A program made the translations under genes and the position numbers. 64,000 bases of DNA, from contig JBJOPW010000002.1 of assembly GCA_046050355.1 (NCBI GenBank), forward strand, positions 43,853-107,852, given 5' to 3'. The notes under the pieces were generated by a model that had not been told where the DNA came from, ran no database searches, and saw only the letters and a program-made list of their open reading frames with translations. How positions within the stretch are numbered: the first letter of the stretch is position 1; each line of letters opens with the position of its first letter. Below, in pieces: positions 441 to 19,298 of the stretch. This DNA is from Candidatus Parcubacteria bacterium (GTDB lineage Bacteria; Patescibacteriota; Minisyncoccia; Phycocordibacterales; UBA918).

Positions 441-512
441 GCTCTCATAGTTTAATGGATAGAATGCCGGTTTGCGGTACCTGCGATCCAGGTTCGATTC
501 CTGGTGAGAGCA
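441..512 (+). tRNA. tRNA, predicted anticodon GCG (Arg-type loop TTGCGGT). Isotype uncertain.
   Basis: 72-nt cloverleaf. Acceptor stem GCTCTCA/TGAGAGC. D-arm contains GG. T-arm CCAGG-TTCGATT-CCTGG. The anticodon stem CCGGT/ACCTG has one C-U mismatch. No CCA encoded. Confidence 0.7.
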
Positions 513-521
513 CAGCAGTAT

Positions 522-587
522 AACGAAAGACCATCCATGCGCACATGGGTGGTCTTTCGTTATAGCAAGCAATTAGTATTGCTTGCG
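522..587. terminator. Two consecutive hairpins downstream of the tRNA: a 12-bp stem at 522-561 and a 9-bp stem at 566-587.
   Basis: AACGAAAGACCA...TGGTCTTTCGTT and GCAAGCAAT..ATTGCTTGC inverted repeats. Confidence 0.45.
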
Positions 588-603
588 GACTGCTGTGCTG
601 ACC

Positions 604-710
604 GGAGCGATGTTTTCTGCTTGGCTAAAGCAGAAAACCGCGAGGTGGGGTCGAGAACACTTAGTAGATTGGGAACGAAGTGAACCAATATACTTAGTGA
701 TTCGTGACCA
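604..710 (+). repeat. Copy A of a ~108-nt tRNA-associated repeat element.
   Basis: Variable 5' hairpin (GTTTTCTGCTT..AAGCAGAAAAC) followed by a conserved ~75-nt core. The core contains the hairpin AGTAGATTGG[GAACGAAGTGAA]CCAATATACT. About 90% identical to copies at 5437-5545 (minus) and 15505-15612 (plus). Confidence 0.65.
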
Positions 711-793
711 CAAACGGTACGAAAAAGCGCACCCTTATGGGTGCCTTTTTCGTTCGTGCTTTCACAGCAAAGCCTCTCGAGGCTTTGCGTCAG

Positions 794-864
794 GAATCGA
801 AGCCCGATTGAGAGTAGATTATGAGCTTGTGAAATAATCTAGCCACGAGCGTGATCGATTCCTG
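794..864 (+). repeat. Distal part of the composite element at the first tRNA locus: inverted T-arm copy, conserved-loop-type hairpin, partial direct repeat of the tRNA 3' region.
   Basis: GGAATCGAAGCC (794-805) is the reverse complement of the tRNA T-arm region. Hairpin TAGATTA[tGAGCTTGTGAAAt]TAATCTA at 815-841. TCGATTCCTG (855-864) matches the tRNA T-arm/acceptor junction. Confidence 0.4.
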
Positions 865-965
865 TTGACTTTGAGGCGCATAGTATACTTCCCGTGTTAC
901 AATCGACATGTTACAAAATAAAGTATTGTATGATTAAAACCATATCATTAGAACGGTTCATTATT

Positions 966-1769
966 ATGAGTTTGCTAGCGGCTGGATTTTTGCTTCAGGC
1001 AGGTATTGCCGCTGCTGCCACAACTGGCACTTTGCTTCCCACGACTGACGGCATCAATGCCAGTTGGACCCCAAAAACTGGCACTACCCACTACACGATG
1101 GTGGATGAGACGGCTTGCAATGGCACCACTGATTATGTATCAGAAACTACTGTCGGGGAGCGCGATTCATATCAGGTATCATTGGCTTCTGTGCCAGCCA
1201 ACGCTGAGATTACGAGTATTGCTATTGTGCCGTGCGCCTCTCGCAATAGTTCGGGTGGTGGTTCGTCAGTAATGGACGTGTTTTATCGCTTCAATGGCGC
1301 ACAGAGTGCTGACCAAGGTGGCTATGCGCTCACTGGTACCACTCCAACAGCCCTTGCAACGACTACTTTTTCTGGTTTGAGCCTAATCAATGCTGCATCG
1401 AGCACCCTTGAAGTAGGAGCGGTTTATACTTCAGGTACTAAGGGTGCTCGCTTGAGTCGTTTGGCTACGGTCATTACTTATACTCCGGCGGTGACGATCC
1501 CAACTGCGCCAACCAACTTCTTTGCCTTGGCGACCTCAACCGGTACCACTACCGGTGTTTACGCTTTTTGGACTGACAATTCAACCAATGAACAAGGTTT
1601 TAAGCTTGAACGTAGTACTGATAACGTGAACTTTAGTCTCGTAACAACCACTACTGGTCGCACCTTCCTCGATACTCCGGTTGCGAGTGGTACTTACTAC
1701 TACCGAGTCTACGCATACAATACTGCTGGTAACTCTAGTTACGCTACAAGTACTGCCATCGTACCGTAA
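966..1769 (+). CDS. Secreted protein with a C-terminal fibronectin type III-like domain.
   Basis: Signal-peptide-like N-terminus (MSLLAAGFLLQAGIAAAA). Thr/Gly/Ser-rich. C-terminal FWTDNS...YYYRVYAYNTAGNS resembles Fn3. The long ORF from 894 was trimmed to the ATG at 966. Confidence 0.5.
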   Translation: MSLLAAGFLLQAGIAAAATTGTLLPTTDGINASWTPKTGTTHYTMVDETACNGTTDYVSETTVGERDSYQVSLASVPANAEITSIAIVPCASRNSSGGGSSVMDVFYRFNGAQSADQGGYALTGTTPTALATTTFSGLSLINAASSTLEVGAVYTSGTKGARLSRLATVITYTPAVTIPTAPTNFFALATSTGTTTGVYAFWTDNSTNEQGFKLERSTDNVNFSLVTTTTGRTFLDTPVASGTYYYRVYAYNTAGNSSYATSTAIVP

Positions 1770-1859
1770 GCGAGAACAATATCCAACAAAATGCCACGCC
1801 ACTGCGCGTGGCTTTTTGTTTTTGCCATTTCACCCTATCTCGCATACAATACGACACAT

Positions 1860-2240
1860 ATGCGACTCATGGGTATTGATTACGGCACTAAAAAAGTGGG
1901 GATTGCCTTTACGGATGAAAGTGGGAAGATGGCGTTCCCGCATGGAGTAATACCCAATACACCCAAATTGCTTGATGTTATCACTGGCCTCATTAACGAA
2001 AAACGAGTAGGAGCGGTAGTCATCGGTCACTCACTAGATAAAGAAGGGAAACCTAACACTGTTCAGGCAGCGGTCGAGTCCCTGATGCTTGACCTTACAC
2101 TAGCGACCGGACTCCCCATCCATCTTGAACCCGAACAGTACTCAACCCAAGCCGCCTTACAATTACAAGGGAGGACGGCCCAGACTGATGCTTCAGCAGC
2201 AGCCCTCATTCTTGATGGATACCTTACTCGTAAAAAATAA
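1860..2240 (+). CDS. ruvX: Holliday junction resolvase-like protein YqgF/RuvX.
   Basis: MRLMGIDYGTKKVGIAFTDE N-terminal motif typical of the RuvX/YqgF RNase H-like family. Start chosen at the in-frame ATG at 1860. Confidence 0.8.
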   Translation: MRLMGIDYGTKKVGIAFTDESGKMAFPHGVIPNTPKLLDVITGLINEKRVGAVVIGHSLDKEGKPNTVQAAVESLMLDLTLATGLPIHLEPEQYSTQAALQLQGRTAQTDASAAALILDGYLTRKK

Positions 2241-2250
2241 TCAAACAATT

Positions 2251-2583
2251 ATGGAACAAATCACGTATGAAGATTTTGCTAAATTACATATTGGTATTGG
2301 TACAATACTGACTGTTGAAATTGTTGAGGGGGCAGATAAATTATTGAAACTCGCCGTGGAAGTAGGCGAGGAGAAACCACGACAGATTCTATCTGGTATC
2401 AGGGAATATTTTGCAGACCCGCAAGTACTGGTGGGGAAGCAATTTCCGTTTGTGCTTAATCTGGCTCCCCGGGTGATTCGGGGGTTTGAGAGTCAGGGCA
2501 TGATACTGGCGGCTAGTTATGAAGACGCATTGGCACTTCTAGCGCCGACAATCACCGTAGCACCTGGTACCAAAGTGAAATAG
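2251..2583 (+). CDS. tRNA-binding protein (Trbp111/CsaA-like OB-fold, EMAP domain).
   Basis: 110 aa. GIGTILTVEIVEGADKLLKLAVEVGEE...QILSGIREYF...GKQFPFVLNLAPRVIRGFESQGMILAA matches the tRNA-binding domain. Start at MEQITYEDF. Confidence 0.75.
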   Translation: MEQITYEDFAKLHIGIGTILTVEIVEGADKLLKLAVEVGEEKPRQILSGIREYFADPQVLVGKQFPFVLNLAPRVIRGFESQGMILAASYEDALALLAPTITVAPGTKVK

Positions 2584-2687
2584 GTGTGGGTTCCGGCAGC
2601 GAATTAGACAAAGCACAACGTATAATACAAGTAATGTCTTTTAGTTCGTTGCTTGCGCAGTATTTGCCACCGCCACAGTTCCTTAAA

Positions 2688-3728: not shown

Positions 3729-4261
3729 CCAATCTTATTCCCCCTAGTGCTGAAAAGCTTGTTATTAAAGAGTACTGGCTCCGGGTGGTGGCAGTCTGGT
3801 TATTTTTATTTGGAACTGGCTGTTTGATTGTAGCGAGTCTCCATCTGCCGACTTACGTATTGGTACGTAACGAGTTGACTGACTTGCGACAGCAGGTAGC
3901 AAATAATGCAGCCGAAACAGCCAGTATTGATACCAGCTCAGCCGCCATACAAGTAGCCATGACCGATGCCACTTTACTGCTAACGATGGGCACTAGCAGT
4001 GGTCAACATGTAGCAACAATTGAAGCGCTGACTACTATTGCCGGCAGTGATGTAGCACTGTCTTCGTTCTCACTCACGGTCAATGAAAAAAGTACCCAAA
4101 TAACTATCACTGGTACCGCACGAACTCGTACCGCTTTGGCGAATTTTCGTGACGCAATAGAAGCCGATGATCGATTTACTGATGCTATATTGCCAATATC
4201 CAGCTTAATTAAAGATCGCAACATTGACTTTACTATGACAGTAACAAGTAATAACCTATGA
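3725..4261 (+). CDS. pilN: PilN-like type IV pilus assembly protein.
   Basis: N-terminal NLIPP motif, single TM, then a periplasmic domain. Overlaps pilM by 4 nt (ATGA). Confidence 0.5.
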   Translation: MTNLIPPSAEKLVIKEYWLRVVAVWLFLFGTGCLIVASLHLPTYVLVRNELTDLRQQVANNAAETASIDTSSAAIQVAMTDATLLLTMGTSSGQHVATIEALTTIAGSDVALSSFSLTVNEKSTQITITGTARTRTALANFRDAIEADDRFTDAILPISSLIKDRNIDFTMTVTSNNL

Positions 4262-5222: not shown

Positions 5223-5276
5223 TCGAAGTCACCGCACTAAACCACATCACTGTTGTGATGTGGTTTAGTGAATTTA

Positions 5277-5420
5277 CTCTGCCCCGGCTTGGAATCGTCC
5301 TGACGGTCACCAAGCTAGATTGTTTCGCTTTTGCTCACAATCTAGCAGGTGCCGCGGGACACGGCTCGCTGGCCCTAAAGGGGACCCCAGCTCCGCCGTT
5401 CGATTCCAAGCCGTGCCTAC
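5277..5420 (-). repeat. Structured tRNA-Arg 3'-end-derived segment: inverted and direct copies of the tRNA 3' end closing a multi-hairpin region that includes a conserved-loop hairpin.
   Basis: 5277-5297 is a 21/21 direct repeat of 5631-5651 (tRNA-Arg 3' end plus 4-nt trailer). 5399-5410 is its inverted complement (12-bp closing stem). Internal hairpin CTAGATTGT[GAGCAAAAGCGAA]ACAATCTAG. Confidence 0.5.
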
Positions 5421-5436
5421 AAATGTTAAATAATTT

Positions 5437-5545
5437 GGTCACGAATCACTAAGTATATTGATTCACTCCGTTCTCAATCTACTAAATGTTCGCGACCCCG
5501 TCTCGCGGTTTTCTGCTTTGGTCAAGCAGAAAACATCGCTGCGAC
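5437..5545 (-). repeat. Copy B of the ~108-nt tRNA-associated repeat element.
   Basis: Reverse complement aligns to copy A, including the GTTTTCTGCTT..AAGCAGAAAAC hairpin and the core ending GATTCGTGACCA. Core hairpin AGTAGATTGA[GAACGGAGTGAA]TCAATATACT. Confidence 0.65.
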
Positions 5546-5587
5546 TCAGAGAGAAGTCGAAAGCAATATTAATTGCTTTCTAAACCA

Positions 5588-5626
5588 AACAAAAGCGCTC
5601 GTTTTGAGCGCTTTTGTTTGGTTTTC
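5588..5626. terminator. Strong hairpin (14-bp stem) immediately downstream of tRNA-Arg(TCT).
   Basis: AAACAAAAGCGCTC-GTTTT-GAGCGCTTTTGTTT with flanking T/A runs. Confidence 0.55.
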
Positions 5627-5633
5627 TTCTCTC

Positions 5634-5705
5634 TGCCCCGGCTTGGAATCGAACCAAGAATAACGGCTTAGAAGTCCGCAGTTATATCCATTTAACTACC
5701 GGGAC
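5634..5705 (-). tRNA. tRNA-Arg (anticodon TCT).
   Basis: Reverse complement folds as a cloverleaf. Acceptor GTCCCGG/CCGGGGC, D-stem GTTA/TAAC with GG in the loop, anticodon loop CTTCTAA, T-arm CTTGG-TTCGATT-CCAAG. No CCA encoded. Confidence 0.8.
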
Positions 5706-5799
5706 GCACCCCATCTAACGATGAGGTGAAGACAGCATAGCAAAAAAATGGTGAGCCGGAAACTTCGTGAATCGCGCAGTGTTTTGTATACTACAAATT

Positions 5800-6537
5800 A
5801 TGCAAGACCGACCGACTATCCTTTTGGTGCAATTCAGACAAACTCCTGCCGCTGATCTCCTCGAACGCCAGAGTGTTGAACGTGAAGTTTCTCTCTTTGC
5901 GACGGTAAAAACTATATGTGGGGTTACCGGCAATGTACTCGAAGCGATACAGGGTGCTGATGGTGTGATACTCGGCGGTTCGGGAGACTATGATTTTGAT
6001 GGAGCGAGATCGCCCGATGATCCAGTACGGGCACGTACCGAAAATCTGTTTCGGTCACTTAGTCCAACGCTCGATTACTTATTTACTATCGATAAGCCAC
6101 TTCTTGGGATTTGTTTTGGACACCAGCTCATGGGTGCCTTTCGGGGTGCCAATGTCTATCACGACACTAACCAGAGCAAATTAAAGACGCATACCGTGAC
6201 GCTCCACGATGAAGGACGGAACCACCGCCTGTTTGCAAATATGCCAGTAACTTTTGATGCACAGTATGGACACAAGGATGTGCTCGCACATATTCCGACG
6301 GGTGCGACTTTGCTTGCGCATGGTGGTGAATCCTGTCGGGTGTCAGCGCTCGCGTATAGTGACAATATTATCTCGACACAATTCCATCCCGAATTATCGC
6401 TCGCTGATATGTATGACCGGGTGGCACATATTCCGCACTATTTACCAGAAGGTACAACCGTTGATGACGTGTTTTTTGATACGCCACACGCGCGGACGAT
6501 TTTGCATAATTTTGCGAAGGTGGTGGTAGCGGGGTAG
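5800..6537 (+). CDS. Class I glutamine amidotransferase-like protein.
   Basis: GICFGHQLM (catalytic Cys elbow) and TQFHPE motifs of the GATase1 family. Start trimmed to the ATG at 5800. Confidence 0.7.
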   Translation: MQDRPTILLVQFRQTPAADLLERQSVEREVSLFATVKTICGVTGNVLEAIQGADGVILGGSGDYDFDGARSPDDPVRARTENLFRSLSPTLDYLFTIDKPLLGICFGHQLMGAFRGANVYHDTNQSKLKTHTVTLHDEGRNHRLFANMPVTFDAQYGHKDVLAHIPTGATLLAHGGESCRVSALAYSDNIISTQFHPELSLADMYDRVAHIPHYLPEGTTVDDVFFDTPHARTILHNFAKVVVAG

Positions 6538-6754
6538 GGGCGGGGACTCGGTCACTCTCGTGGCTATATTAGTTCACAAGTTCATAATCTATGGACTCTT
6601 CAGGACTCGACCCAGAATCACGGTTCTTTTATTCAATACATTGAATAAAAGAAGCTCGTGTTCTTGGTCGGCGACTCCTCGTAATTTCTCTTGGTCAGAG
6701 AAATTACATCGTCCGTCGCTTCGAGTCCCTCACGGAAGCAAAACTATTTGCTTC

Positions 6755-7006
6755 CTATCGCCCACAAACAAAAAGAACCACTCCTGCGGTTCTTTTTGTT
6801 TGTGGCCATGACCGCGACAGAGATCGAACTATCACTGAGTTCCTCAAGAAGTTCGACAAGACGTCCGCCGATGCGTAAAGGCCTTGAAACTTCTGTAATG
6901 TGGCCATGATCGTGACACGGATCGAACTATCAGCGAGTTTCTGAATAAATTCGACAAGCCATCTGTCAGGGAATAAAGACCCTAAGACTTCTGTAAGGCG
7001 GCCCAC
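6755..7006 (-). pseudogene. Fused, frame-shifted tandem copies of a small-gene 3' end (shares the C-terminal peptide ...LQKxQGLYxSAxxLSNFxRNSVIVRSLSRS with 7976-8185).
   Basis: The ORF reads through two tandem ~100-bp DNA repeat units. The stop codon present in the 7976 copy (TGA) is TGG here, and unit 2 is frame-shifted. Confidence 0.3.
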
Positions 7007-7022
7007 ATCGACACATTTCTCG
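6764..7022 (+). repeat. 16-bp-stem hairpin (6764-6803) followed by two tandem ~100-bp repeat units (6803-6900, 6901-~7022). A third unit lies at 7973-8098.
   Basis: Units begin TGG(C/T)CATGA(C/T)CG(C/T)GACA..GATCGAAC and contain GTAAAG.CC.T.A.ACTTCTGTAA. Units 1 and 2 are directly adjacent with no spacer. Confidence 0.6.
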
Positions 7023-7678
7023 AACTTGGGCTCCCAACGACCTTCTAAGGTCGATCATTGAAAGGCTGGCGTCGCGTAAGTTGCCCCAGCAGGCTCGCGA
7101 CAATCATTGCGAGGCCTCCTTGCACTCATTCGATGCCGGCAACAATGGGTCGAAGAGCCTTGACATGCGGCAACGGACTGTTCCACCCTTAGACAGCACT
7201 CAATGAGAGGTTGAATCGACTCGCGCCGAAGTCCTGTTTCGGGTTCACAAAATGCTTCCAACTGTTACTGGTTCCATGCTCGGGATCGGAAGATATCTTA
7301 GTCACAGCGACAACCTAAGTACTTGATTTTATTGAGTTTTCCGCCTTTTTCCTTGCATTTGCCGCTGAGGTATGGGAAGATACTTGGGCGATAGGCTCGA
7401 GGCTGACCCGTCGCGGTGAAAGGTGCTGCAACACCAATCACATGTCCCACAAGGACGGCGCCCCAACCACAACCTGGTTGGGGCTTTCCTTTTATGTTGA
7501 CACGATGTCGTGGTCACATCCACCATGTTCCCATCAGGTTCGAGAATCGGGATGCAGCCCGCGAGCCTGACAGGGTCAGCCTCGGCCCTGCACTTTGTGG
7601 CGCGAATGCCGCTTATCGGCCCGGTGGCTGAGTTTGTACGCGCATTGGAGTGCAGGGCTTCTAGATTGGAGCCTACCC

Positions 7679-7864
7679 ATGTCGAAACATGGTATCATCG
7701 CCGATGTGCTCTTCGGAGCGATTGAAACCACCCTTGCGCCAGTCGTTGCTGTCGTCGAGGGAGTAACCGGTGAGGTCAGCAAGGAAGCCAGCGATGGTGT
7801 GCTTCGGGCAATTGTTGATCCGACCGATATCGCGATCAACGGCCTGATCAATATCACGAGGTAA
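7679..7864 (+). CDS. Small hypothetical protein (61 aa).
   Basis: ATG with GGAG 9 nt upstream. ORF is followed immediately by an 8-bp GC hairpin (CTCCGGCG..CGCCGGAG). Lies in the GC-elevated segment. Weak support. Confidence 0.25.
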   Translation: MSKHGIIADVLFGAIETTLAPVVAVVEGVTGEVSKEASDGVLRAIVDPTDIAINGLINITR

Positions 7865-7930
7865 CATCTCACTAACTCCGGCGGGATCTAGGTCTCGCCG
7901 GAGCCTAATAAATGTGTTTCTGATAGAAGA

Positions 7931-8098
7931 CAAGGGGAGTTGCGCAGTCCGCAACTCCCCTTGTCTTTACAGTGGTCATGACCGCGACAAGGATCGAACG
8001 ATCACGGAGTTCCTGAAGAAATTCGACAAGCCTCCCGCCGAAGAGTAAAGACCCTGAGACTTCTGTAAGGTGACCCAGAACGACACACTTCTCGAACC
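7931..8098 (+). repeat. Perfect 14-bp-stem hairpin (7931-7965) followed by repeat unit 3.
   Basis: CAAGGGGAGTTGCG-cagtcc-GCAACTCCCCTTG, then TGGTCATGACCGCGACAAGGATCGAAC... homologous to units at 6803-7022. Confidence 0.6.
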
Positions 8099-8185
8099 AT
8101 AAAAACGGTGCTCGAAAAATTGCAACATGTCGGTGGAAGAGACGCTAGACTTCGAAAACTCGAAAACTGAGTCTCTTGGTGGCAA
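7976..8185 (-). CDS. Small hypothetical protein (69 aa) ending in the repeated C-terminal peptide, followed by a terminator hairpin.
   Basis: Intact ORF whose last ~30 codons lie in repeat unit 3. TGA stop, then the 14-bp hairpin on the minus strand. Confidence 0.3.
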   Translation of the reverse strand: MPPRDSVFEFSKSSVSSTDMLQFFEHRFYGSRSVSFWVTLQKSQGLYSSAGGLSNFFRNSVIVRSLSRS

Positions 8186-8436
8186 TAGCAGAGACAGGGG
8201 TCAAAGCATCACGGAATTCTCGAGTAATCCACAATTCTTCTGGCTAAGAGTAAACTCTCTGAGATATCGGTACTGCGACCTTGACCGAGAAGGGTAGAAA
8301 GGAGAAAGCTATGACGTGAACTTACAGTGATCTAGACGCACAGCCCGACACGTTGGAGTTCAAATTGAAGTCAAGGTTCGGCAAGCATGCTCACAGTGAC
8401 AGTCTGTTCATTAGGGACGGAACCTGATGAACGCCA

Positions 8437-8859
8437 GTGGTGACACGCGATGTGCAAAGTGACATAGAGAGCTTCAAGTCAATTGATGACAGGGGTCAGT
8501 GGATGCTGCAACCAACATACTACGAGCACGAGTCGGGCTTGAACTGTGTTGACATAGCCAAGCGGTTGGCATTCCTTCGGGGAAACATTGTAAAGTACGT
8601 TTGGCGAGCAGGCAATAAGGGTGATTTGGTTCAAGACCTGCAGAAGGCGATTGAGTACGCGCAGATACTCATTGTTGACCCAGATCGGGTTTGCCAGGAC
8701 CAAGAGTTGGTTTCGATGATTGATTGGTATTGTAAGAATGAGTCGCACGACCTTCGTAGGACCATTATTAGAAGTGCCGCGCTGGACTCATCAGAGATCG
8801 ACTTGAAAGAAGGTGTTTTGATGAAGCTAGACCAGTGGGTTGATTCAACTCGGTCATGA
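8437..8859 (+). CDS. DUF3310-family protein (phage-associated).
   Basis: TYYEHESGLNCVDIAKRLAFLRGNIVKYVWRAGNKGDLVQDLQKAIEYAQIL matches the DUF3310 signature (..HY..G.E.ID.......FLLGNAIKYIWRAG.KG....DL.KA.WYL). GTG start. 3' end overlaps the convergent gene 8768-9454 by 92 nt, so its extent is uncertain. Confidence 0.5.
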   Translation: MVTRDVQSDIESFKSIDDRGQWMLQPTYYEHESGLNCVDIAKRLAFLRGNIVKYVWRAGNKGDLVQDLQKAIEYAQILIVDPDRVCQDQELVSMIDWYCKNESHDLRRTIIRSAALDSSEIDLKEGVLMKLDQWVDSTRS

Positions 8860-9454
8860 GTACTCGCTGCAGCAGCGTTAGTCGCGTATAATTCTTAGCA
8901 TCTTTGATGCAGGCAGGGTTGCGGATATTCAACATTAGGCAAGATCTGGTGAAGAACCATGACTTCAGATAGACTTCTCTCCCCCCAATAAACGGACAGC
9001 GAACAAGATCTACGGTACTTCTGCTAACGAGAAGGGAACGGTTGACCGAAGCTATCAGAGTGTCCATGACGGCATGATCAACAGTATTCCTGAACATCCG
9101 CGGATCGCCCCTTAGTACCTCCGAAAACAAACCTTCAGGTCCTATCTGATCGCGGAGGTCAGACTCTTCACGAAGAAGTTCATATATTTCTTTGACTAGT
9201 GCCCAATGCTTCTTGTCGCAGAGGTTGATCACGGACTCTGCTTCAATTCGTGCTTCAAGGACGACGGGAGTCAATTCAGTTCCGGCGCACTTGTTTTCCG
9301 TCCACGACAACGCATGGCGTGGGCCAGCTTCGAAGAAGTATATGCCTTCACCTAGCCAAAGGCCATCATGTTTACTCGGGTTGAATCTGTTCGATCGAGA
9401 GATTGACTCAGCAGACCCAAGGTCTGTTCCATGATACGCGATGTAGGTATACAA
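8768..9454 (-). CDS. ART-fold protein (RES-domain / PARP-like), putative NAD-utilizing toxin.
   Basis: N-terminal YHGT...NRFNPS...GEGIYFFEAGPRHALSWTE resembles the RES motif (GRFNPpG...lYlaes.etAllE) and the PARP H-G-[ST]/G.GIYF pattern. The C-terminal ~60 aa overlap the DUF3310 ORF and may be read-through. Confidence 0.45.
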   Translation of the reverse strand: MYTYIAYHGTDLGSAESISRSNRFNPSKHDGLWLGEGIYFFEAGPRHALSWTENKCAGTELTPVVLEARIEAESVINLCDKKHWALVKEIYELLREESDLRDQIGPEGLFSEVLRGDPRMFRNTVDHAVMDTLIASVNRSLLVSRSTVDLVRCPFIGGREVYLKSWFFTRSCLMLNIRNPACIKDAKNYTRLTLLQRVLMTELNQPTGLASSKHLLSSRSLMSPARHF

Positions 9455-9485
9455 AAAAATAGGCCCCCAGAGATTGTGGGGGACC

Positions 9486-10169
9486 TTAGCTTCCTACAAC
9501 GGTCTTTGCAAGACTCTCTCCCTGAACTGCATTGATGTTGTTGGGATCAGTGCAGTTGATGCGGTGAAATTCGTTCGCTGCAAAGACAATCACCGAGACA
9601 TTGGCTGAATCCGCCTCTGCCTTGACGATGCTGTAGGCCCTACGCAACTCATCGCGCGAAATCGCGTCAATGGTTAGGCCCATTCGCTTTGTCCTGTTTG
9701 ATAGAGGGGTTGCGTTGTCCCGTAGCTGATTTAAGCTAACCGGAAGAGCATCTGAGCTTGGTTTCCAAGTGCGAGATCCAAGAAGGACTTCGACACCATT
9801 ATCCCTTTGCTCTATATCTCCGCCTGTAATTATAAACTCTAAAGCAACAATTGCAATTAATATACCAACTTGAGGCAATAGAAGGAGAATTGTCAAGTAG
9901 AGCTCAGTTTCTGTCGTCTTTAGGAAGATTAGTGAGGCAGCGCTCGTTAGCAGAAGAATAAGATGGACTATTCCAAGTACAATAGATATCCCTACTCTGC
10001 GCGGAAGTATCTCCCCATGCTCATTTACTTGGGTTATCGGTTCAAAAAGGGTCCGAGCATTCAAAACTACTCGCCTCAATGTGCTTACAAACTGCCGCAA
10101 TGATGACGAACGCTTAACTAGCGCATAGAGGCCTGGTCCGACGGCGAAACTCAAAAGTGATGCTGACAT
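9486..10169 (-). CDS. Two-TM membrane protein of unknown function, directly upstream of and co-oriented with the ART-fold gene.
   Basis: Two adjacent hydrophobic helices (aa ~60-113) and a ~110-aa C-terminal soluble domain. 31-nt gap to the downstream gene. Confidence 0.45.
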   Translation of the reverse strand: MSASLLSFAVGPGLYALVKRSSSLRQFVSTLRRVVLNARTLFEPITQVNEHGEILPRRVGISIVLGIVHLILLLTSAASLIFLKTTETELYLTILLLLPQVGILIAIVALEFIITGGDIEQRDNGVEVLLGSRTWKPSSDALPVSLNQLRDNATPLSNRTKRMGLTIDAISRDELRRAYSIVKAEADSANVSVIVFAANEFHRINCTDPNNINAVQGESLAKTVVGS

Positions 10170-10273
10170 TTGGTCGAAAACTGCTTCTCGAACCGGACCA
10201 TAATCGGAAAATATCCAGTGTTAGAGCCCTATAATTGGCTTCAGATGAGGGAAAATTGTGGGGGTGTCCCCAA

Positions 10274-10349
10274 TGGTGGGCGATGAGGGACTCGAACCCC
10301 CGACCTCGATGGTGTAAACATCTTGCTCTACCAACTGAGCTAATCGCCC
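10274..10349 (-). tRNA. tRNA-Val (anticodon TAC), CCA encoded.
   Basis: Reverse complement GGGCGAT-TA-GCTC..GAGC-A-AGATG-TTTACAC-CATCG-AGGTC-GGGGG-TTCGAGT-CCCTC-ATCGCCC-A-CCA. A hairpin TGGGGGTGTCCCCA lies immediately 3'. Confidence 0.85.
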
Positions 10350-10434
10350 GAATGTCATGCAGTATAGCGTACTTTATTAAATTGTCCACCGGTAAGTTAT
10401 TAGAATAACACGTATATGGTATAATAATGAGCGT

Positions 10435-11100
10435 ATGAAAATACTCGAAAAGAAGAGGGCTATAGAGTTGCGTGAGCGGGGGATAGCTTTAGGTGAAATC
10501 GCTAAAAAATTAAACGTAGCAAAAGCTACAGTCAGTTATTGGGTACGGGATATTTCATTATCGAAGACACAGATCAAGCAACTCAGAGCGAATAGTCACT
10601 CAAGAGAAGCAATTGAAAAGCGACGATTGTCACGTATGACTGCAGCCGAAAAAATCCGAGATAGTATACGAGAAGAAGCTCGACAACAAGCAGTACAGTT
10701 AATCAAAAATCCATTATGGTGTGTTGCAATAGCCTTATATTGGGGGGAGGGTGGAAAGACGCAACGAACGGTTCGAATCGCAAATAGCGACCCCTCAGTT
10801 ATTAGACTACTTTGCCACTTCTTTAGAAATGAATGTCATGTGCCACTTTCTAAAATGCGAGCACATGTTCATGCGTTTTCGCACAGCGATATTGAATCAA
10901 TAGAGAAGTACTGGTCAAAAATTAGTGGCATACCCAGAAATCAATTTTTTAAGGCATATATTAAACAAAGTAGCTCTAGTAAAGAAAAAAGACAAACACT
11001 TCCAAATGGTACAATGCAAATATATGTACATGATAGTAGTTTGTTTATTAAAATTATAGCTTGGATAGAATATCTGAAAGAGATAAAACATTATGATTGA
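10435..11100 (+). CDS. HTH-domain protein with a possible LAGLIDADG-like motif (candidate free-standing homing endonuclease).
   Basis: N-terminal resolvase/sigma-70 region-4-like HTH (RGIALGEIAKKLNVAKATVSYWVRD). Central AIALYWGEGGK resembles LAGLI(E/D)GDG. AT-rich. Sits between tRNA-Val and acyP. Confidence 0.4.
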   Translation: MKILEKKRAIELRERGIALGEIAKKLNVAKATVSYWVRDISLSKTQIKQLRANSHSREAIEKRRLSRMTAAEKIRDSIREEARQQAVQLIKNPLWCVAIALYWGEGGKTQRTVRIANSDPSVIRLLCHFFRNECHVPLSKMRAHVHAFSHSDIESIEKYWSKISGIPRNQFFKAYIKQSSSSKEKRQTLPNGTMQIYVHDSSLFIKIIAWIEYLKEIKHYD

Positions 11101-13453: not shown

Positions 13454-13467
13454 TCTCTCATCAATAA

Positions 13468-13496
13468 CAAAACCGACCGTCAGGTCGGTTTTGTTA
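13468..13496 (+). terminator. Rho-independent terminator after rplS.
   Basis: AAAACCGACC-GTCA-GGTCGGTTTTGTT. Confidence 0.6.
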
Positions 13497-13508
13497 TATA
13501 CTGTCGCT

Positions 13509-15058: not shown

Positions 15059-15151
15059 TGCAATTATCGTAACATAGGGAATCGACAGTGACTTGATAAT
15101 ACTATTGCTTTAGTGCATAATGTCGCCACTTGAGAAATCAAGGTTCTCACC

Positions 15152-15236
15152 TGCCCAGGTGGCGAAATTGGTAGACGCACTACCTTGAGGTGGTAGCGCC
15201 TTCACGGGCATGCTGGTTCAAATCCAGTCTTGGGCA
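15152..15236 (+). tRNA. tRNA-Leu (anticodon GAG), long variable arm.
   Basis: GCCCAGG acceptor, GG in the D-loop, anticodon arm CTACC-TTGAGGT-GGTAG, variable arm CGCCTTCACGGGCAT, T-arm CTGG-TTCAAAT-CCAG. No CCA encoded. Confidence 0.85.
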
Positions 15237-15670
15237 CAAATAGCCGACCGAAACATGAATATGTTTCGGTCGTTGCTATTTGTAGACCAAGACTGGATTT
15301 GAAAGACAGTTTCGGGGTTCCCTTAGGGCCGAAACTGTCCGGGTCGGGCGAATGAGTTATATTGTGAGCAAAGCGAAATAATATAACCATGAGTGTGACC
15401 AAATCCAGTCTTGGGCACAAAGTCGTAAAACAAAAACAATTCTCCAAAAGAGAATTGTTTTTGTTTTAGAAAGCCAATGACTTGGCTTTCGACGACTTTG
15501 TGAAGCGGAGCGTTGTGAGTCGCCCCAGAAAGGCGACGAACCGCGAGCTGGGGTCGAGAACACTTAGTAGATTGAGAACGGAGTGAATCAATATACTTAG
15601 TGATTCGTGACCAGGACAAGCAAACAGGATTAAATAAAAAGCTTAGTAACTCATGACTTAATCCAGTCTT
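15237..15670 (+). mobile_element. Composite non-coding element(s) downstream of tRNA-Leu, bounded by direct repeats of the tRNA 3' end.
   Basis: Hairpin 15245-15276. Inverted copy of the tRNA 3' end at 15284-15302. Hairpin 15305-15338. Conserved-loop hairpin GTTATATTGT[GAGCAAAGCGAA]ATAATATAAC at 15355-15386. A 22-nt exact direct repeat of the tRNA 3' end at 15399-15420. Hairpin 15425-15468. Repeat copy C. A second partial repeat AATCCAGTCTT at 15659-15669. Confidence 0.5.
15505..15612 (+). repeat. Copy C of the ~108-nt tRNA-associated repeat element.
   Basis: Conserved core CCGCGAGCTGGGGTCGAGAACACTTAGTAGATTGAGAACGGAGTGAATCAATATACTTAGTGATTCGTGACCA. Its 5' hairpin differs from copies A and B (GTCGCC..GGCGAC). 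Confidence 0.65.
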
Positions 15671-15739
15671 ACCATGAGACGGAACGATCTTTCAGCTGTT
15701 CCTCATACCAAAATTGCCAAAGTGGTATACTACTCCCGT

Positions 15740-17128: not shown

Positions 17129-17150
17129 ATTTCAATAAATATAATCGACC

Positions 17151-17702
17151 ATGAAACAGCTCACATTTATCACTGGCAACCCAAACAAAGTTAAGCAACT
17201 AGAGCTTTATCTCAAGTTCCCGGTGGAGTACCGGGCAATTGATTTGCCCGAAATCCAAAGCCTCGATTTGGAAACGGTCGCGGTAGCAAAAGCGCAGGCG
17301 GCTTATGCGATTCACAAAGCGCCGGTGCTGATTGAAGATATTGGGCTGTCGTTTTCGGCGTTGGGCGGCCTCCCTGGTCCGTTTGTAAAGTGGTTCCTCG
17401 AAACGGTTGGTAACGAAGGTATGTGCCGCATGCTCGACAGCTATCAGGATCGCACAGCTATCGGAGCCGTCTGCTATGTCTTGTGTGACGAGCATGGACA
17501 CCAAGTGTTCACCGCTGCGCGAGAGGGGACTATTGCCATGACCCCGCGTGGCCCGAGTTACTTTGGTTGGAATCCGATTTTCATCCCTAAAGGGGAAACA
17601 AACACCTATGCCGAGATGTCGCCAGAAAAAGAACAGGCAACTTCACTCCGCCGAACAGCTATTGGCAAGCTTCAGACGTATCTCGACGCCAATTACCAGT
17701 GA
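17151..17702 (+). CDS. rdgB: Non-canonical purine NTP pyrophosphatase (RdgB/Ham1 ITPase).
   Basis: FITGNPNK N-terminus and FGWNPIF motif. Confidence 0.8.
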   Translation: MKQLTFITGNPNKVKQLELYLKFPVEYRAIDLPEIQSLDLETVAVAKAQAAYAIHKAPVLIEDIGLSFSALGGLPGPFVKWFLETVGNEGMCRMLDSYQDRTAIGAVCYVLCDEHGHQVFTAAREGTIAMTPRGPSYFGWNPIFIPKGETNTYAEMSPEKEQATSLRRTAIGKLQTYLDANYQ

Positions 17703-17760
17703 CAGGTCGCCCTTAGGGGCGGCTTTTGTTTGGTAGTAGCTGACAACATCACAGTTGCCG

Positions 17761-18105
17761 CTATTTAATTTTGTCCCCAATAGCGATATGGAAGTGGAGA
17801 TGAGGTGTGTCTTGCCACTTACCAATATTTGTTAGTAATTGTACTCCTTTATTCTGAAGCTCTTCTTCTGGTATGGTACGAATAATATCTCGGGCAACGG
17901 TGAGAATTTCTTCATATAAAGAAGTGTCAGTTACATGACGAATATCCCAAATATGCTCTTTAGGAATTATGACTATATGTTTTTCCCAAAACGGTTTGGT
18001 ATGGTAGTACGCTAATATGCGATCGCTTTCAAACACCTTTTCAATATCCGCATCTTGCTTGAGGGCTACATCGCAATAAAAATCGAAGTCATCGGGATTA
18101 CTCAT
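17761..18105 (-). CDS. HIT-family hydrolase.
   Basis: Histidine triad HLHFHI near the C-terminus. 114 aa. Confidence 0.75.
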   Translation of the reverse strand: MSNPDDFDFYCDVALKQDADIEKVFESDRILAYYHTKPFWEKHIVIIPKEHIWDIRHVTDTSLYEEILTVARDIIRTIPEEELQNKGVQLLTNIGKWQDTPHLHFHIAIGDKIK

Positions 18106-18182
18106 TAAAAAATTATAGCAGGTTTGTCTGCCTGCTAGGGATAAGGGTGAAAGTTAGTCGTGGGAGATAAAAAGAAACCGCC

Positions 18183-18935
18183 TTAGGGAGGGTCGGTTTC
18201 AGGAGGGGCAAGTTTTGCCCAGCGTGTGATAGCATCGTCGCAATGCTTGATCGCCACTTTGTTGCCAGCATCAGCTTGAGTGCGATTGCTGCTTTGGTCG
18301 AGCCACAGACGGGCGGTAGCGACCGGCAACCCCTTCTCGACTAGCCAGTCAAGACAGCCTGGGTCGACATCCACGTAGATTTCAGACAGACGACTGTGGA
18401 ACAGCGAGTCTGCCTGAGCGATATCCCCTCGGTCGAGGAAGATCGATACGACGAGGGTGTCGTACTGTCTACCATCCTGGTAGAAGAGAACGATCAACTC
18501 TTCCGCAGAAATGGGCGAATACTGCTCAAAAGCTTCCAAGAGCAGTTGACGGTTCTCGCCTTTGGGAAGTTTTTCCCAAAGCAGCTGCGCAATTTCAAGC
18601 AGGGCTGGATTCAGAACACCGTTGATTTGCGTCAGCAGGAGTACGTCTCGGACGGGGTGGCGCAACCCACGGAAGGTGGCAGGGATTCCAACCAAGTGAG
18701 CCAACTCGGCCCACTTTTCCAAGAGTGCCGCCACGACTGCGGTGAGGATGTTTGCTCGATCAGTTTCGGGCAGGTTGCTCACAGCAATGTGCTGAAAAGC
18801 CCGTCGGCATGGTGTAGCTTCGTAATCCGTGAGATTCTTGAAGTCTTTGGACAGATTCCGGTCGATGCCGAAGAAGTCCGTCCAGTCCTTTTGGGTGGCA
18901 GTGATTGCATCAAAGTCCATCGTCGTCTCCAGCAA
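18183..18935 (-). CDS. Hypothetical protein (250 aa), GC-elevated.
   Basis: Long protein-like ORF followed on its strand by a terminator hairpin at 18149-18178 plus a U-run. The overlapping plus-strand ORF 18396-19163 was judged less protein-like. Confidence 0.45.
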   Translation of the reverse strand: MLETTMDFDAITATQKDWTDFFGIDRNLSKDFKNLTDYEATPCRRAFQHIAVSNLPETDRANILTAVVAALLEKWAELAHLVGIPATFRGLRHPVRDVLLLTQINGVLNPALLEIAQLLWEKLPKGENRQLLLEAFEQYSPISAEELIVLFYQDGRQYDTLVVSIFLDRGDIAQADSLFHSRLSEIYVDVDPGCLDWLVEKGLPVATARLWLDQSSNRTQADAGNKVAIKHCDDAITRWAKLAPPETDPP

Positions 18936-19010
18936 AGATCGGTGCGTGACCTACGCAGCAAGGGAACATTCCGTGCCAGCTTACAATATAAACAAATCTC
19001 GTCAATGGAG

Positions 19011-19222
19011 AGGCGGCTACCGGAAGGAATTGGTCACAGGTTACTAAGCTTTTTATTTCGCTTTGCTCATAAAAATCTAAGTACCCGCGACCCCGCCTCG
19101 GCCGTTTTATTTCTAGAAAGAAATAAAACATGCCTGCGACTTTCAATTCCCGGACGCAAGTGATACTAATCACTTGCTTAGCCGCCCCAATATAAAAGAC
19201 CCCAAAAAGGGGTCCTTTATAT
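19011..19222 (-). mobile_element. Composite non-coding element downstream of tRNA-His, bounded by a direct repeat of the tRNA 3' end.
   Basis: Partial direct repeat GGCGGCTACCGG.A..GGAATTGG at 19013-19034. Conserved-loop hairpin (minus sense ATTTTTAT[GAGCAAAGCGAA]ATAAAAA) at 19049-19077. Palindromic hairpins 19106-19129 and 19157-19178. Inverted copy of the tRNA 3' end (TAGCCGCCCCAATAT) at 19179-19195. Terminator hairpin 19196-19218. Confidence 0.5.
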
Positions 19223-19298
19223 TGGGGCGGCTACCGGGAATTGAACCCGAATTGAGAGTTCCACAAACTCCAGTAATAACCATTATACCATAGCCGCC
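19223..19298 (-). tRNA. tRNA-His (anticodon GTG) with encoded G-1 and CCA.
   Basis: Reverse complement GGCGGCTA...anticodon arm GGAGT-TTGTGGA-ACTCT, T-arm TCGGG-TTCAATT-CCCGG, 3' end TAGCCGCC-C-CCA. The extra 5' G pairing with C73 is His-specific. Confidence 0.85.

What the first reader, a model, noticed from the sequence alone, without database searches (positions are those of the whole stretch)
441..19298. A recurring composite element sits downstream of four tRNA genes: inverted plus direct copies of the host tRNA's 3' end flank a hairpin with a conserved loop
Four tRNAs share the same non-coding architecture immediately 3' of the tRNA, in tRNA-sense orientation. They are the GCG-anticodon tRNA at 441-512, Arg-TCT at 5634-5705, Leu-GAG at 15152-15236 and His-GTG at 19223-19298. 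The order is: terminator-like hairpin, an inverted copy of that tRNA's own T-arm/acceptor 3' end, a hairpin whose stem differs between copies while its 12-13-nt loop is conserved, then a direct repeat of the tRNA 3' end. The loop-conserved hairpins are at 815-841 (GAGCTTGTGAAA), 5310-5345 (GAGCAAAAGCGAA), 15355-15386 (GAGCAAAGCGAA) and 19049-19077 (GAGCAAAGCGAA). The direct repeats are at 855-864, 5277-5297 (21/21 nt), 15399-15420 (22/22 nt) and 19013-19034. Different stems with one loop is the covariation pattern of a functional RNA or protein-binding site. Target-derived inverted and direct repeats are the footprint of site-specific insertion at tRNA 3' ends. No integrase or transposase is present and the elements are only 160-360 bp. 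This looks like a family of miniature tRNA-targeting elements, or trailer-encoded structured RNAs. I cannot match it to any family known to me.
Basis: seen in the sequence. Interest (0 to 1): 0.85.

Follow-up and report, generated by a model that had tools for sequence, protein, structure and literature searches.

The report
Tiny insertion cassettes at tRNA ends
Four tRNA genes in this candidate-phyla-radiation (Patescibacteria) bacterium are followed by stacked copies of small, gene-free insertion cassettes that carry a spare copy of the tRNA's tail, an antisense 'guide' to it and a conserved folded core. The family occurs across this whole bacterial superphylum and matches no mobile-element or RNA family that I could find.

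Summary
Downstream of tRNA-Arg(GCG), Arg(TCT), Leu(GAG) and His(GTG) lie seven units plus remnants. Each unit has the same plan:
- a copy of the tRNA 3' end plus a terminator-like hairpin;
- a 'guide' complementary to that 3' end and to 1-3 nt upstream of the junction;
- a ~100-nt structured core;
- the displaced original 3' end.

A pattern from one core type hit at least 119 loci, nearly all Patescibacteria. It lies 80-140 nt behind tRNAs of every amino acid, behind tmRNA, and inside the 3' ends of ftsZ and rpsI. Covariation supports a three-helix, sense-strand fold. The junction is fixed: after tRNA position 56, or after position 72.

Sister genomes carry different units, orders and remnants at the same tRNAs. 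One core, 93% identical, sits at tRNA-Arg here and at tRNA-His in relatives, with guide and repeat re-matched. This window's tRNA-Val is empty where relatives are filled.

No integrase, transposase or reverse transcriptase is nearby. Rfam, viral contigs and literature gave nothing.

Best reading: a new family of non-autonomous, target-guided insertion cassettes. The enzyme and the nucleic-acid form (RNA or single-stranded DNA) are unknown.

The parts
441..513 (+). tRNA-Arg(GCG); no CCA encoded
514..598 (+). Front module of unit B1. It comprises trailer b (510-519, overlapping the tRNA end), terminator-like hairpin T (520-563), conserved hairpin hp2 (564-586) and guide ACTGCTGTGC (589-598). The guide is complementary to GCACAGCAGT, which spans the tRNA 72/73 junction.
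600..709 (+). Core B1 (GGGGTCG type): P1, GGA, P2, GAG, P1', GG, P3, ending GTGACC
   Evidence: CM hit of 65 bits, E = 5e-12; covariation
718..801 (+). Front module of the older unit A1: intrinsic-terminator-like hairpin (718-753), guide part 1 (about 755-766), hairpin (767-788) and guide part 2, CAGGAATCGAA (791-801).
   Evidence: the same module occurs in sister locus L133
802..855 (+). Core A1. It is a degraded chimera: a D-type head (GCCCGATTGAG) joined to an A3-type tail (..CCACGAGCGTGAT). It contains the capped hairpin at 815-841.
856..864 (+). Displaced copy of the tRNA-Arg(GCG) T-loop and T-stem, CGATTCCTG (9 nt)
5634..5705 (-). tRNA-Arg(TCT)
5547..5633 (-). Front module of B2: trailer, T hairpin (5582-5625), hp2 (5559-5580) and guide CTTCTCTCTG (5547-5556)
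5437..5546 (-). Core B2 (GGGGTCG type)
   Evidence: CM hit of 61 bits
5399..5417 (-). Guide of A2, complementary to tRNA-Arg(TCT) from position 54 onward
5297..5398 (-). Core A2, ending GGTGACCGTCAGGAC. It is 90-93% identical to cores sitting at tRNA-His in sister genomes.
5277..5296 (-). Displaced tRNA-Arg(TCT) 3' end. Together with the preceding C it makes a 21/21-nt repeat.
15153..15237 (+). tRNA-Leu(GAG)
15236..15303 (+). Front module of A3: trailer plus terminator-like hairpin (15236-15283) and guide (15287-15303)
15304..15400 (+). Core A3, ending GTGACC. This unit is absent from the same tRNA in relatives L120, L121, L122, L124, L133 and L136.
15400..15421 (+). Displaced tRNA-Leu 3' end (22/22 nt). 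The trailer that follows it is orthologous to the relatives' native trailer.
15427..15502 (+). Front module of B3: T hairpin (15427-15467), hp2 (15470-15489) and guide (15492-15502)
15503..15612 (+). Core B3 (GGGGTCG type)
   Evidence: CM hit of 60 bits
15636..15670 (+). Tail remnant of a third unit (..CTTAGTAACTCATGACT) plus a third, partial copy of the tRNA-Leu T-loop region (TAATCCAGTCTT)
19223..19298 (-). tRNA-His(GTG), with G-1 and CCA encoded
19142..19223 (-). Front module of H: T hairpin (19189-19223), guide part 1 GGGGCGGCTA (19179-19188), hp2 (19156-19178) and guide part 2 CCGGGAATTGAA (19142-19153)
19032..19141 (-). Core H (GGGGTCG type, with the GA/GAA cap in P3)
   Evidence: CM hit of 64 bits
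19012..19031 (-). Displaced tRNA-His 3' end (with a 2-nt insertion)

Best explanation
These are members of an undescribed family, or two superfamilies, of ORF-less insertion cassettes of about 150-250 bp. They are found across Patescibacteria and colonise the 3' ends of genes, above all tRNA genes.

Shown:
- A cassette sits inside the gene at a fixed point, after tRNA position 56 in the T loop or after position 72.
- It keeps the gene intact by supplying its own copy of the remaining 3' end (b) followed by a terminator-like hairpin (T).
- Next comes a 'guide' complementary to b and to the 1-3 host nucleotides upstream of the junction. The junction therefore lies inside a long hairpin.
- Then comes a conserved core with a covariation-supported fold that works only on the gene's sense strand.
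- The displaced original 3' end follows and decays.
- New cassettes enter at the live gene, so the newest unit is the one nearest the tRNA.
- Arrays, tail remnants, module shuffling and lineage-specific presence or absence result.

Inferred:
- Insertion is a strand exchange at the junction. It is directed by base-pairing or homology between the cassette's b/guide hairpin and the target.
- It is catalysed by something encoded elsewhere.
- My preferred concrete version is that the b/guide hairpin is a self-folding, single-stranded attachment site that mimics the duplex target. This resembles integron attC sites, CTX-phage attP and IS200/IS605 guide-defined cleavage. The core would then be the handle for the trans-acting factor.
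- Co-transcription with the tRNA probably also yields a core RNA.
For: - Distribution and association. The core pattern hit at least 119 loci, nearly all Patescibacteria. Of 128 copies, 98 have a same-strand tRNA or tmRNA no more than 460 nt upstream, typically 80-140 nt, covering all amino acids. Copies also sit inside the ftsZ and rpsI 3' ends.
- Fixed junction. 31 of 36 clear repeats start exactly at tRNA position 57. The other class starts at the discriminator.
- Guide specificity. A complement of at least 12 nt anchored at T54 occurs in 23/90 cognate comparisons against 1/816 non-cognate ones.
- Structure. 88.5% of cells are paired against 73% in shuffles. The covariation score is 0.415 against 0.137 (0/500 shuffles) and against 0.06-0.11 for slid controls. 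G.U outnumbers A.C by 141 to 21.
- Turnover. Orthologous Leu, His, Arg-TCT, Arg-GCG and Val loci differ in content and order between genomes whose flanking proteins (PMM, GATase) are 76-95% identical to the window's.
- Retargeting. The A2 core is 93% identical at tRNA-Arg here and at tRNA-His in relatives, with guide and repeat re-matched to the local tRNA.
- Insertion versus ancestral state. A3 is present only in this genome, and the trailer after its repeat is orthologous to the relatives' native trailer.
- Core conservation. Cores are 90-97% identical between genomes whose coding DNA, where alignable, is about 65-67% identical.
- No recombinase in cis. No integrase, transposase or reverse transcriptase is in the window.
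Against: - No empty and filled alleles were seen within one population. Nine near-identical contigs were all alike.
- No free or circular form, no trans-acting enzyme and no autonomous relative was found.
- There were 0 hits in viral contigs.
- Guide complementarity often stays perfect while the displaced repeat decays. This suggests the hairpin has a function in place, not only at insertion.
- How a cassette acquires a new guide together with a new 3' end copy when it changes target is unexplained.
- The terminator-like hairpin lies upstream of the guide and core, so their transcription may be weak.
Confidence: 0.6

Rival explanations
1. RNA-level, intron-like element. The guide acts like a group I internal guide sequence. 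It pairs with the last 1-3 nt of the '5' exon' plus the element's first nucleotides (a P1-like helix), or alternatively with the displaced 3' end (P10-like). The small core, alone or with a host protein, would then cut and join at 56/57 or 72/73, and spread by reverse splicing.
For: - The junction lies inside the guide helix, 1-3 bp from its end, at tRNA, ftsZ and rpsI targets alike.
- The guide can pair with either copy of the 3' end. MFE folds show both alternatives.
- The structure is sense-strand-specific and always co-oriented with the upstream gene.
- Patescibacteria are rich in self-splicing tRNA introns (PMC13011429).
Against: - Every copy keeps an intact upstream gene. In 0 of 30 candidates does a tRNA appear only after virtual splicing; the positive control gave 21/25.
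- No reverse transcriptase is in the window.
- There is no Rfam intron or ribozyme hit.
- The core has only three helices.
- The 3' terminal nucleotide is C, not the omega-G of group I introns.
Confidence: 0.15
2. The units are not mobile. They are host-beneficial RNAs encoded in tRNA trailers, acting as processing, termination or quality-control devices or as small regulatory RNAs. The guide would sequester the tRNA 3' end in read-through transcripts or create an RNase III or RNase P site. The arrays would arise by local duplication.
For: - Core sequence is extremely conserved, comparable to the tRNAs themselves.
- Guide/3'-end complementarity is maintained in place while the distal repeat decays.
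- In isolation the guide, hp2 and displaced end fold into a tRNA-like four-way junction.
- tRNA 3' trailers giving functional sRNAs are known in E. coli (my own knowledge).
Against: - Presence is not conserved per tRNA. tRNA-Val lacks a unit here but has one in relatives, and unit type and order differ between close relatives.
- The same core occurs at different tRNAs.
- Units are inserted inside the ftsZ coding 3' end with a 37-nt repeat.
- Tail remnants accumulate.
Confidence: 0.15
3. The units are scars (attL/attR remains) of classical integrase-encoding prophages or genomic islands that integrated at tRNA genes and were later deleted.
For: - A regenerated tRNA 3' end plus a displaced fragment is the hallmark of tDNA islands (PMC4383910).
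- Repeat starts at the T loop and at the 3' end correspond to known integrase sublocations (my own knowledge of Williams 2002).
Against: - Size and full architecture are uniform across more than 100 loci.
- The core is conserved and covarying.
- A target-complementary guide has no role in integrase att sites.
- All tRNA species, tmRNA and protein genes are targets of the same core.
- No integrase was seen in the window (flanks of the other loci were not screened).
- There are no hits in 2.9 million viral contigs.
Confidence: 0.05

Closest known systems
tRNA/tmRNA-targeting genomic islands and prophages (tyrosine integrases; Islander database, PMC4383910)
   Same: - They insert inside the 3' part of tRNA or tmRNA genes.
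- The element supplies a replacement 3' end.
- The original fragment is displaced and marks the far end.
- The newest insertion lies next to the gene.
- Junctions fall at the T loop or at the 3' end.
   Different: - Size is 150-250 bp, with no integrase or any ORF.
- One core family is found at every tRNA species and also at ftsZ and rpsI.
- It carries an inverted copy of the target (the guide) and a covarying, strand-specific structured core.
Folded single-strand attachment sites: integron attC cassettes and CTX-phage attP; IS200/IS605 (IS608) guide-defined cleavage, and the derived PATE/REP elements mobilised in trans
   Same: - They are small, ORF-less and hairpin-based, and are recognised by structure rather than sequence.
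- The enzyme is encoded elsewhere.
- Cassette arrays have the newest unit proximal (integrons).
- The cleavage site is specified by base-pairing with an internal guide next to a hairpin foot (IS608; my own knowledge).
   Different: - The hairpin here is built from the target gene's own sequence, 10-35 nt.
- There are no attC R/L boxes.
- No IntI, Xer, TnpA or RAYT was identified.
- IS200/IS605 elements make no target copy, whereas these always carry one.
Group I introns (including the tRNA introns common in Patescibacteria, PMC13011429)
   Same: The guide spans the junction like P1 with its internal guide sequence, and can pair with the downstream 'exon' like P10. The host is a tRNA gene, and the structure is sense-strand-only.
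   Different: - There is no Rfam Intron_gpI hit.
- The core is far too small, with three helices and no P3-P9 fold.
- The 3' end is C rather than G.
- The gene is never left interrupted, so splicing is not required.
RNA-guided homing to tRNA genes by type V-K CRISPR-associated transposons (delocalised crRNA), and TnpB/IscB omega-RNAs
   Same: A guide matching a tRNA gene, or the flanking target, is encoded at the element's edge next to a structured scaffold (my own knowledge).
   Different: Those systems encode Cas12k, TnsB/C, TnpB or IscB. Here there is no protein gene, the scaffold is unrelated (no Rfam hit), and guide and target copy form an intramolecular hairpin.
sRNAs derived from the tRNA 3' external transcribed spacer
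   Same: Encoded immediately 3' of tRNA genes, on the same strand, and probably co-transcribed.
   Different: Those are single-locus trailers. They lack target-derived repeats, multi-copy arrays and insertion polymorphism.

Membership tests
tDNA-integrating genomic island / prophage | Regenerated tRNA 3' end plus a displaced direct-repeat fragment | tested here: met
   Exact repeats of 22/22 and 21/21 nt. 31 of 36 repeats start at position 57.
tDNA-integrating genomic island / prophage | Tyrosine (or serine) integrase gene within the element, with kb-scale cargo | tested here: not met
   Units are 150-250 bp with no ORF. Pfam on about 50 window ORFs found no integrase.
MITE | Terminal inverted repeats belonging to the element, fixed-length target-site duplication, and a related autonomous IS | tested here: not met
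   The only inverted repeat is target-derived (guide versus gene 3' end). Repeat length varies from 9 to 37 nt and ends at the gene end. No transposase was found.
Group I intron | Conserved P3-P9 catalytic core (Rfam RF00028) | tested here: not met
   No hit at gathering threshold or at E <= 10.
Group I intron | 5' splice site inside a P1 helix formed with an internal guide, with the 3' exon pairing to the same guide | tested here: inconclusive
   The geometry is analogous. The helix proportions are reversed, and no catalysis has been shown.
Group I / group II intron | The host gene is interrupted and needs splicing | tested here: not met
   Virtual splicing gave 0/30, with a positive control of 21/25. 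Every copy keeps an intact upstream 3' end.
Group II intron | Domain V/VI and GUGYG...AY ends (Rfam RF00029 and relatives); reverse-transcriptase ORF | tested here: not met
   No Rfam hit. No reverse transcriptase in the window.
IS200/IS605 derivatives (PATE), omega-RNA, REP/RAYT | Match to known scaffold RNAs (Rfam IS605-orfB, HEARO) or presence of TnpA, TnpB, IscB or RAYT | tested here: not met
   No Rfam hit. No such Pfam domain among the window ORFs scanned. The rest of the genome was not available.
Integron gene cassette | attC with R''/L''/L'/R' boxes (GTTRRRY) and an IntI integrase | not tested
   Nothing resembling them was noticed while reading the sequences, and no specific scan was run. 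No integrase is in the window.
Any curated RNA family (Rfam 15) | Covariance-model match | tested here: not met
   Only tRNAs and RNase P RNA reach threshold in the window. Low-threshold scans of two element regions give only hairpin-like noise.
Structured RNA (generic) | Compensatory base changes supporting helices, specific to one strand | tested here: met
   Caveats: P1 pairing was required by my parser (98 of 126 copies passed). The GGGTCG, YTTAG and GTGACC columns were fixed by the search pattern.
Structured RNA (generic) | Transcribed as RNA | not testable with these tools
   No expression data. The structure could equally form in sense-strand single-stranded DNA. The caps are mostly C-GNA-G triloops, 24 of 30.

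The most novel reading that the evidence does not exclude
A protein-gene-free mobile element of about 150-250 nt whose own nucleic acid programmes where it inserts. A 10-35-nt guide pairs across the insertion point. A compact three-helix core either is the catalyst (a new small splicing or integrating ribozyme) or recruits a housekeeping enzyme. The element makes itself harmless by carrying the part of the gene it displaces. This would be a new class of guided mobile element, endemic to the candidate phyla radiation.
Probability: 0.25. Interest if true: 0.95.

Novelty: categorically new. Interest (0 to 1): 0.85.

Why it matters
- Prevalence. Patescibacteria have tiny genomes under strong reduction. 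Yet here four of five tRNA genes in a 20-kb stretch carry one to three of these cassettes, and the same cores recur across classes of the superphylum. That is either a very successful selfish element of a new kind or an unrecognised layer of tRNA biology.
- Retargeting. The architecture, a target copy plus an antisense guide plus a small conserved fold with no protein gene, suggests a retargetable insertion mechanism. Its specificity is written in 10-35 nt, and the same core was seen at tRNA-Arg and at tRNA-His. If the trans-acting factor is found, this could be of practical interest for programmable insertion.
- Annotation. The cassettes create tRNA 3' fragments, pseudo-terminators and spurious ORFs (for example 583-837, 15202-15447 and 15323-15619). 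Annotators of these genomes should know about them.
- Strain markers. The cassettes offer markers for strain-level dynamics in uncultured lineages.

Tried and rejected
- Rfam at gathering threshold on the whole window, and at E <= 10 on two element regions, gave only tRNAs, RNase P RNA and hairpin noise.
- I compared the cores by eye with hammerhead, hairpin, HDV-like, K-turn and loop-E consensus motifs and with group II domain V, recalled from memory. None fits; these were not formal tests.
- A viral-contig scan with the core pattern gave 0 hits, so there is no evidence for a phage attP origin.
- Literature searches on Patescibacteria/CPR with tRNA, ncRNA, mobile element and T-loop terms found nothing on this family. 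The nearest paper concerns anticodon-loop group I introns (one search failed on syntax).
- I searched for split tRNAs that would need the element removed. There were none.
- I searched for 'legacy' repeats or guides left over from a previous target. The repeats always fit the local gene. A few guides fit the same tRNA of another genome 2-4 nt better than the resident one. I judge this too weak to count as evidence for horizontal transfer.
- Nine contigs of one sister strain from different samples showed no presence/absence polymorphism.
- The idea that repeat length equals guide length (a guide-measured staggered cut) fits Leu but fails at ftsZ, where a 10-nt guide goes with a 37-nt repeat.
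- The covariance model R1 detects only the GGGGTCG-type cores. It does not detect the A2, A3 or D types.

Full report
**1. What is in the window**

ARAGORN and Rfam find five tRNA genes and an RNase P RNA. This shows seven units plus remnants, not four. All units share one plan.

- The live tRNA gene runs uninterrupted to its 3' end.
- From a fixed point inside it, the sequence belongs to the inserted unit. This stretch is the rest of the tRNA (I call it b) and a short trailer.
- Next comes a stable, often terminator-like hairpin T. Two of these are flagged by the terminator scan.
- In many units a second, sequence-conserved hairpin follows (hp2, for example AGCAAGCAATTAGTATTGCTTGC).
- Then comes a 'guide' that is the reverse complement of b and of the 1-3 nucleotides upstream of the junction.
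- Then a core of about 100 nt.
- Finally a second copy of b, which is the displaced original 3' end.

The arrays, reading away from each tRNA, are:

| tRNA | Array |
|---|---|
| Arg(GCG) | B1, then A1, then a 9-nt repeat |
| Arg(TCT) | B2, then A2, then a 21-nt repeat |
| Leu(GAG) | A3, a 22-nt repeat, B3, a tail remnant, then a third partial repeat |
| His(GTG) | H, then a repeat |

The exact repeats were found independently by the repeat finder. RNA folds of the Leu and His loci are 13 standard deviations more stable than shuffles.

**2. The family outside this genome**

I built a pattern from the B/H core: GGGTCGNGNNNNYTTAG, a gap of 25-50, YTTAG, a gap of 5-7, then GTGACC. I estimate about 5 chance matches in 596 Gb.

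- Nearly all loci are Patescibacteria: Saccharibacteria, Paceibacteria/Parcubacteria, Kaiser-, Yonath- and Nomurabacteria.
- Of 128 copies, 98 have a tRNA or tmRNA gene on the same strand no more than 460 nt upstream. The tRNA end is typically 80-140 nt from the core motif. All twenty amino-acid classes and tmRNA are represented.
- Most of the rest are cut loci, masked sequence or undetected tmRNA ends.
- Three copies follow protein genes. Two sit inside the last ~37 nt of ftsZ, and one is at the end of rpsI. Pfam confirms both gene identities.
- In ftsZ of L107 the repeat is 37 nt, ends at the stop codon, and differs at two positions, both synonymous.
- The window's own genome is a Paceibacteria-like organism. 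Its phosphomannomutase has homologues of up to 95% identity in such bins.

**3. The core is a structured nucleic acid**

I parsed 98 of 126 copies into segments. I then trimmed the two variable hairpin tips. This gave a gap-free alignment of 87 distinct sequences over 76 columns (A3).

The model is:
- P1 (3 bp);
- a GGA/GAG internal loop;
- P2;
- two unpaired G;
- a long P3 with an invariant bulged A, a U.U mismatch inside CUUAG/CUUAG, and a G.U pair, closing with GGUC/GACC.

On this model:
- 88.5% of cells pair, against 73% in column shuffles.
- The covariation score is 0.415 against 0.137 (0 of 500 shuffles reach it), and against 0.06-0.11 when partners are slid by 1-3 columns.
- P1 alternates GCC/GGC, GAC/GUC, GGC/GCC, AGC/GCU and ACC/GGU.
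- P3 positions 38-68, 39-66 and 40-65 switch between G-C, A-U, U-A and C-G.

Caveats:
- My parser required P1 to pair.
- The pattern fixed several columns.

G.U pairs outnumber A.C by 141 to 21, so the fold exists only on the gene-sense strand. This is compatible with RNA or with sense-strand single-stranded DNA.

It sits on P3 or P2, and 24 of 30 triloops are GNA.

Other cores occupy the same chassis:
- A2, ending ..GGTGACCGTCAGGAC.
- A3.
- A C/D superfamily: GAAGCCCGATTGAG, a hairpin, CCAATTGGGGTACTG, a hairpin. It is found in L009, L022, L062, L063, L074, L109, L121, L133 and L136.
- The window's A1 is a degraded D/A3 chimera.

**4. The junction and the guide**

Among 36 copies with a clear distal repeat, 31 repeats begin exactly at tRNA position 57, that is, after T54-Psi55-C56. 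The C/D-type copies read by eye begin at the same position.

The B-type copies end GTGACC|AC... and have only a short repeat starting at the discriminator. Their junction is therefore after position 72.

In both classes, and at ftsZ and rpsI, the guide pairs with b and runs 1-3 nt past the junction into host sequence. For T-loop sites this is GAA opposite TTC. For acceptor-end sites it is tRNA-specific nucleotides 70-72. At ftsZ it is GCG or GCC.

Guides are target-specific. Complementarity anchored at T54 reaches at least 12 nt in 23/90 cognate comparisons against 1/816 non-cognate ones.

In many units hp2 interrupts the guide exactly between its acceptor-complement and its T-arm-complement. 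On its own, the stretch from guide to displaced end then folds into a tRNA-like four-way junction, with the core in place of the T loop. In the full transcript the MFE instead pairs the guide with the live tRNA's 3' half, and pairs the tRNA's 5' half with the displaced end.

**5. Evidence for insertion and turnover**

I fetched orthologous regions from sister genomes through two flanking proteins.

| tRNA site | This window | Relatives |
|---|---|---|
| Leu(GAG) | A3 + B3 + tail | L124/L133: B + tail. L121 and L136: a truncated B. L120: only a terminator plus a tail. L122: a degenerate core plus four or five tails, most followed by a decaying AAATCC.. repeat |
| His(GTG) | H | L120: A2 + an H-like unit. 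L124: A2 + a different unit. L121: the L120 array with an extra C/D-type unit inserted next to the tRNA, bringing its own tRNA end and trailer |
| Arg(TCT) | B2 proximal, A2 distal | L138: the same, plus more. L136: A2 proximal, with only the front module of a B behind it. L133: B only |
| Arg(GCG) | B1 + D/A3 chimera | L133: D, an A3 tail, a second D and another unit. L136: an A3-like unit plus a partial D |
| Val(TAC) | none, only an ordinary terminator | L133 and L136: an H-type unit plus repeat |

- A3 exists only in this window. The trailer after its 22-nt repeat is the orthologue of the relatives' native trailer. A3 is therefore a lineage-specific 181-bp insertion at 56/57.
- The nesting is always consistent with the newest unit being the one nearest the tRNA.
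- The A2 core is 90-93% identical between tRNA-Arg(TCT) here and tRNA-His in L120, L121 and L124. Its guide and repeat are those of the local tRNA, and P1 and P2 carry compensatory changes.
- Front modules and cores also recombine. L002 has the same 75-nt front module twice with two different cores. The window and L121 share the His front module but not the core.
- Cores are 90-97% identical between genomes whose coding DNA, where alignable, is about 65-67% identical.

**6. What is absent**

- Pfam scans of about 50 ORFs covering most ORFs above 130 aa in the window found no integrase, transposase, HUH enzyme or reverse transcriptase. The 1201-aa ORF at 39456-43061 is the largest left unchecked.
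- Those scans did find housekeeping genes: RecA, RecO, RuvX, SSB, FtsK and type IV pilus PilM/N.
- The core pattern is absent from 2.9 million viral contigs.
- No Rfam family matches.
- No tRNA needs the element removed to be complete.
- I found no paper describing the family.

**7. Interpretation**

Shown:
- a widespread, strand-specific, structured, multi-copy element family;
- it sits at fixed positions in gene 3' ends;
- each unit carries a replacement 3' end and a target-complementary guide;
- it differs between close relatives in ways that require repeated insertion, loss and module exchange.

Inferred: how it moves.

- The guide spanning the junction argues that base-pairing defines the site. 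The reaction could occur in RNA (a group I-like P1/P10 logic) or in folded single-stranded DNA (an attC/CTX-like self-made duplex site, or IS608-like guide-defined cleavage).
- I favour the DNA version with a trans-acting enzyme, for two reasons. Every copy carries the replacement 3' end, so splicing is evidently not relied upon. No reverse transcriptase is in view.
- These organisms carry type IV pilus genes (PilM/N) and RecA. From my own knowledge, some Patescibacteria take up DNA. That would supply single-stranded DNA, but this is speculation.
- The guide hairpin often stays perfect while the displaced repeat decays. So the hairpin probably also has a role in place, such as termination, processing or maintenance of excision competence.
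- A purely host-functional, non-mobile reading is hard to reconcile with the presence/absence data and the ftsZ insertions.
- A scar-of-prophage reading is hard to reconcile with the uniform miniature architecture and the guide.

**8. Verdict**

I could not place the elements in any known family. The nearest systems each share one or two principles: regeneration of a tRNA 3' end, folded-hairpin sites, or internal guides. None shares the combination.

Noticed in passing
window 6540-11100: A block of about 4.5 kb lies between the GATase gene (5767-6537) and the acylphosphatase gene (11093-). It is absent from sister genomes L133 and L136, where those genes are about 380 bp apart. It holds three copies of a 150-nt repeat (6802-6951, 6900-7049, 7972-8121), a DUF3310 (phage-associated) protein (8437-8859), several ORFs with no Pfam hit, and an HTH protein (10435-11100). 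It also holds tRNA-Val, which the relatives have too. It may be a small island at tRNA-Val. No direct repeat of the tRNA-Val 3' end was found.
   Followed up: partly
window 10196-10349 (-): tRNA-Val(TAC) encodes CCA and is followed only by an ordinary terminator. The orthologous tRNA-Val in L133 and L136 carries an H-type cassette plus a displaced repeat.
   Followed up: yes
window 30723-30739 (-): A lone 17-nt tail, CTTAGTGATTAGTGACC (16/17 identical to the 3' end of the B cores; zero mismatches to the CTTAGTNNNNNGTGACC pattern). It lies between the DHFR gene (30139-30654, -) and a CYTH-domain gene. No tRNA or co-oriented upstream gene is nearby. It is probably a relic.
   Followed up: partly
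window 27852-28250 (+): RNase P RNA, bacterial class A, scoring just above threshold (109 against 100 bits) with several insertions and deletions. It is followed by a plain hairpin and carries no cassette.
   Followed up: no
L120 8128-8799, L124 2665-3333, L133 10561-11229: A free-standing LAGLIDADG-like gene of 222-223 aa sits 2-18 nt upstream of tRNA-Leu(GAG) in three sister genomes. The window has an inositol monophosphatase and an ion-channel gene there instead.
   Followed up: no
L001 2524-2595: Besides the T-loop repeat, tRNA-Gln is followed by a 35-nt copy of its own 3' part starting in the anticodon stem. This suggests a third insertion point used by some other element.
   Followed up: no
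window 583-837 (+), 15202-15447 (-), 15323-15619 (-), 18910-19173 (-): Mechanical ORFs of 81-98 aa lie entirely within the cassette arrays. They are almost certainly spurious and could be mis-annotated as genes.
   Followed up: no
window 39456-43061 (+): A 1201-aa ORF, not examined.
   Followed up: no
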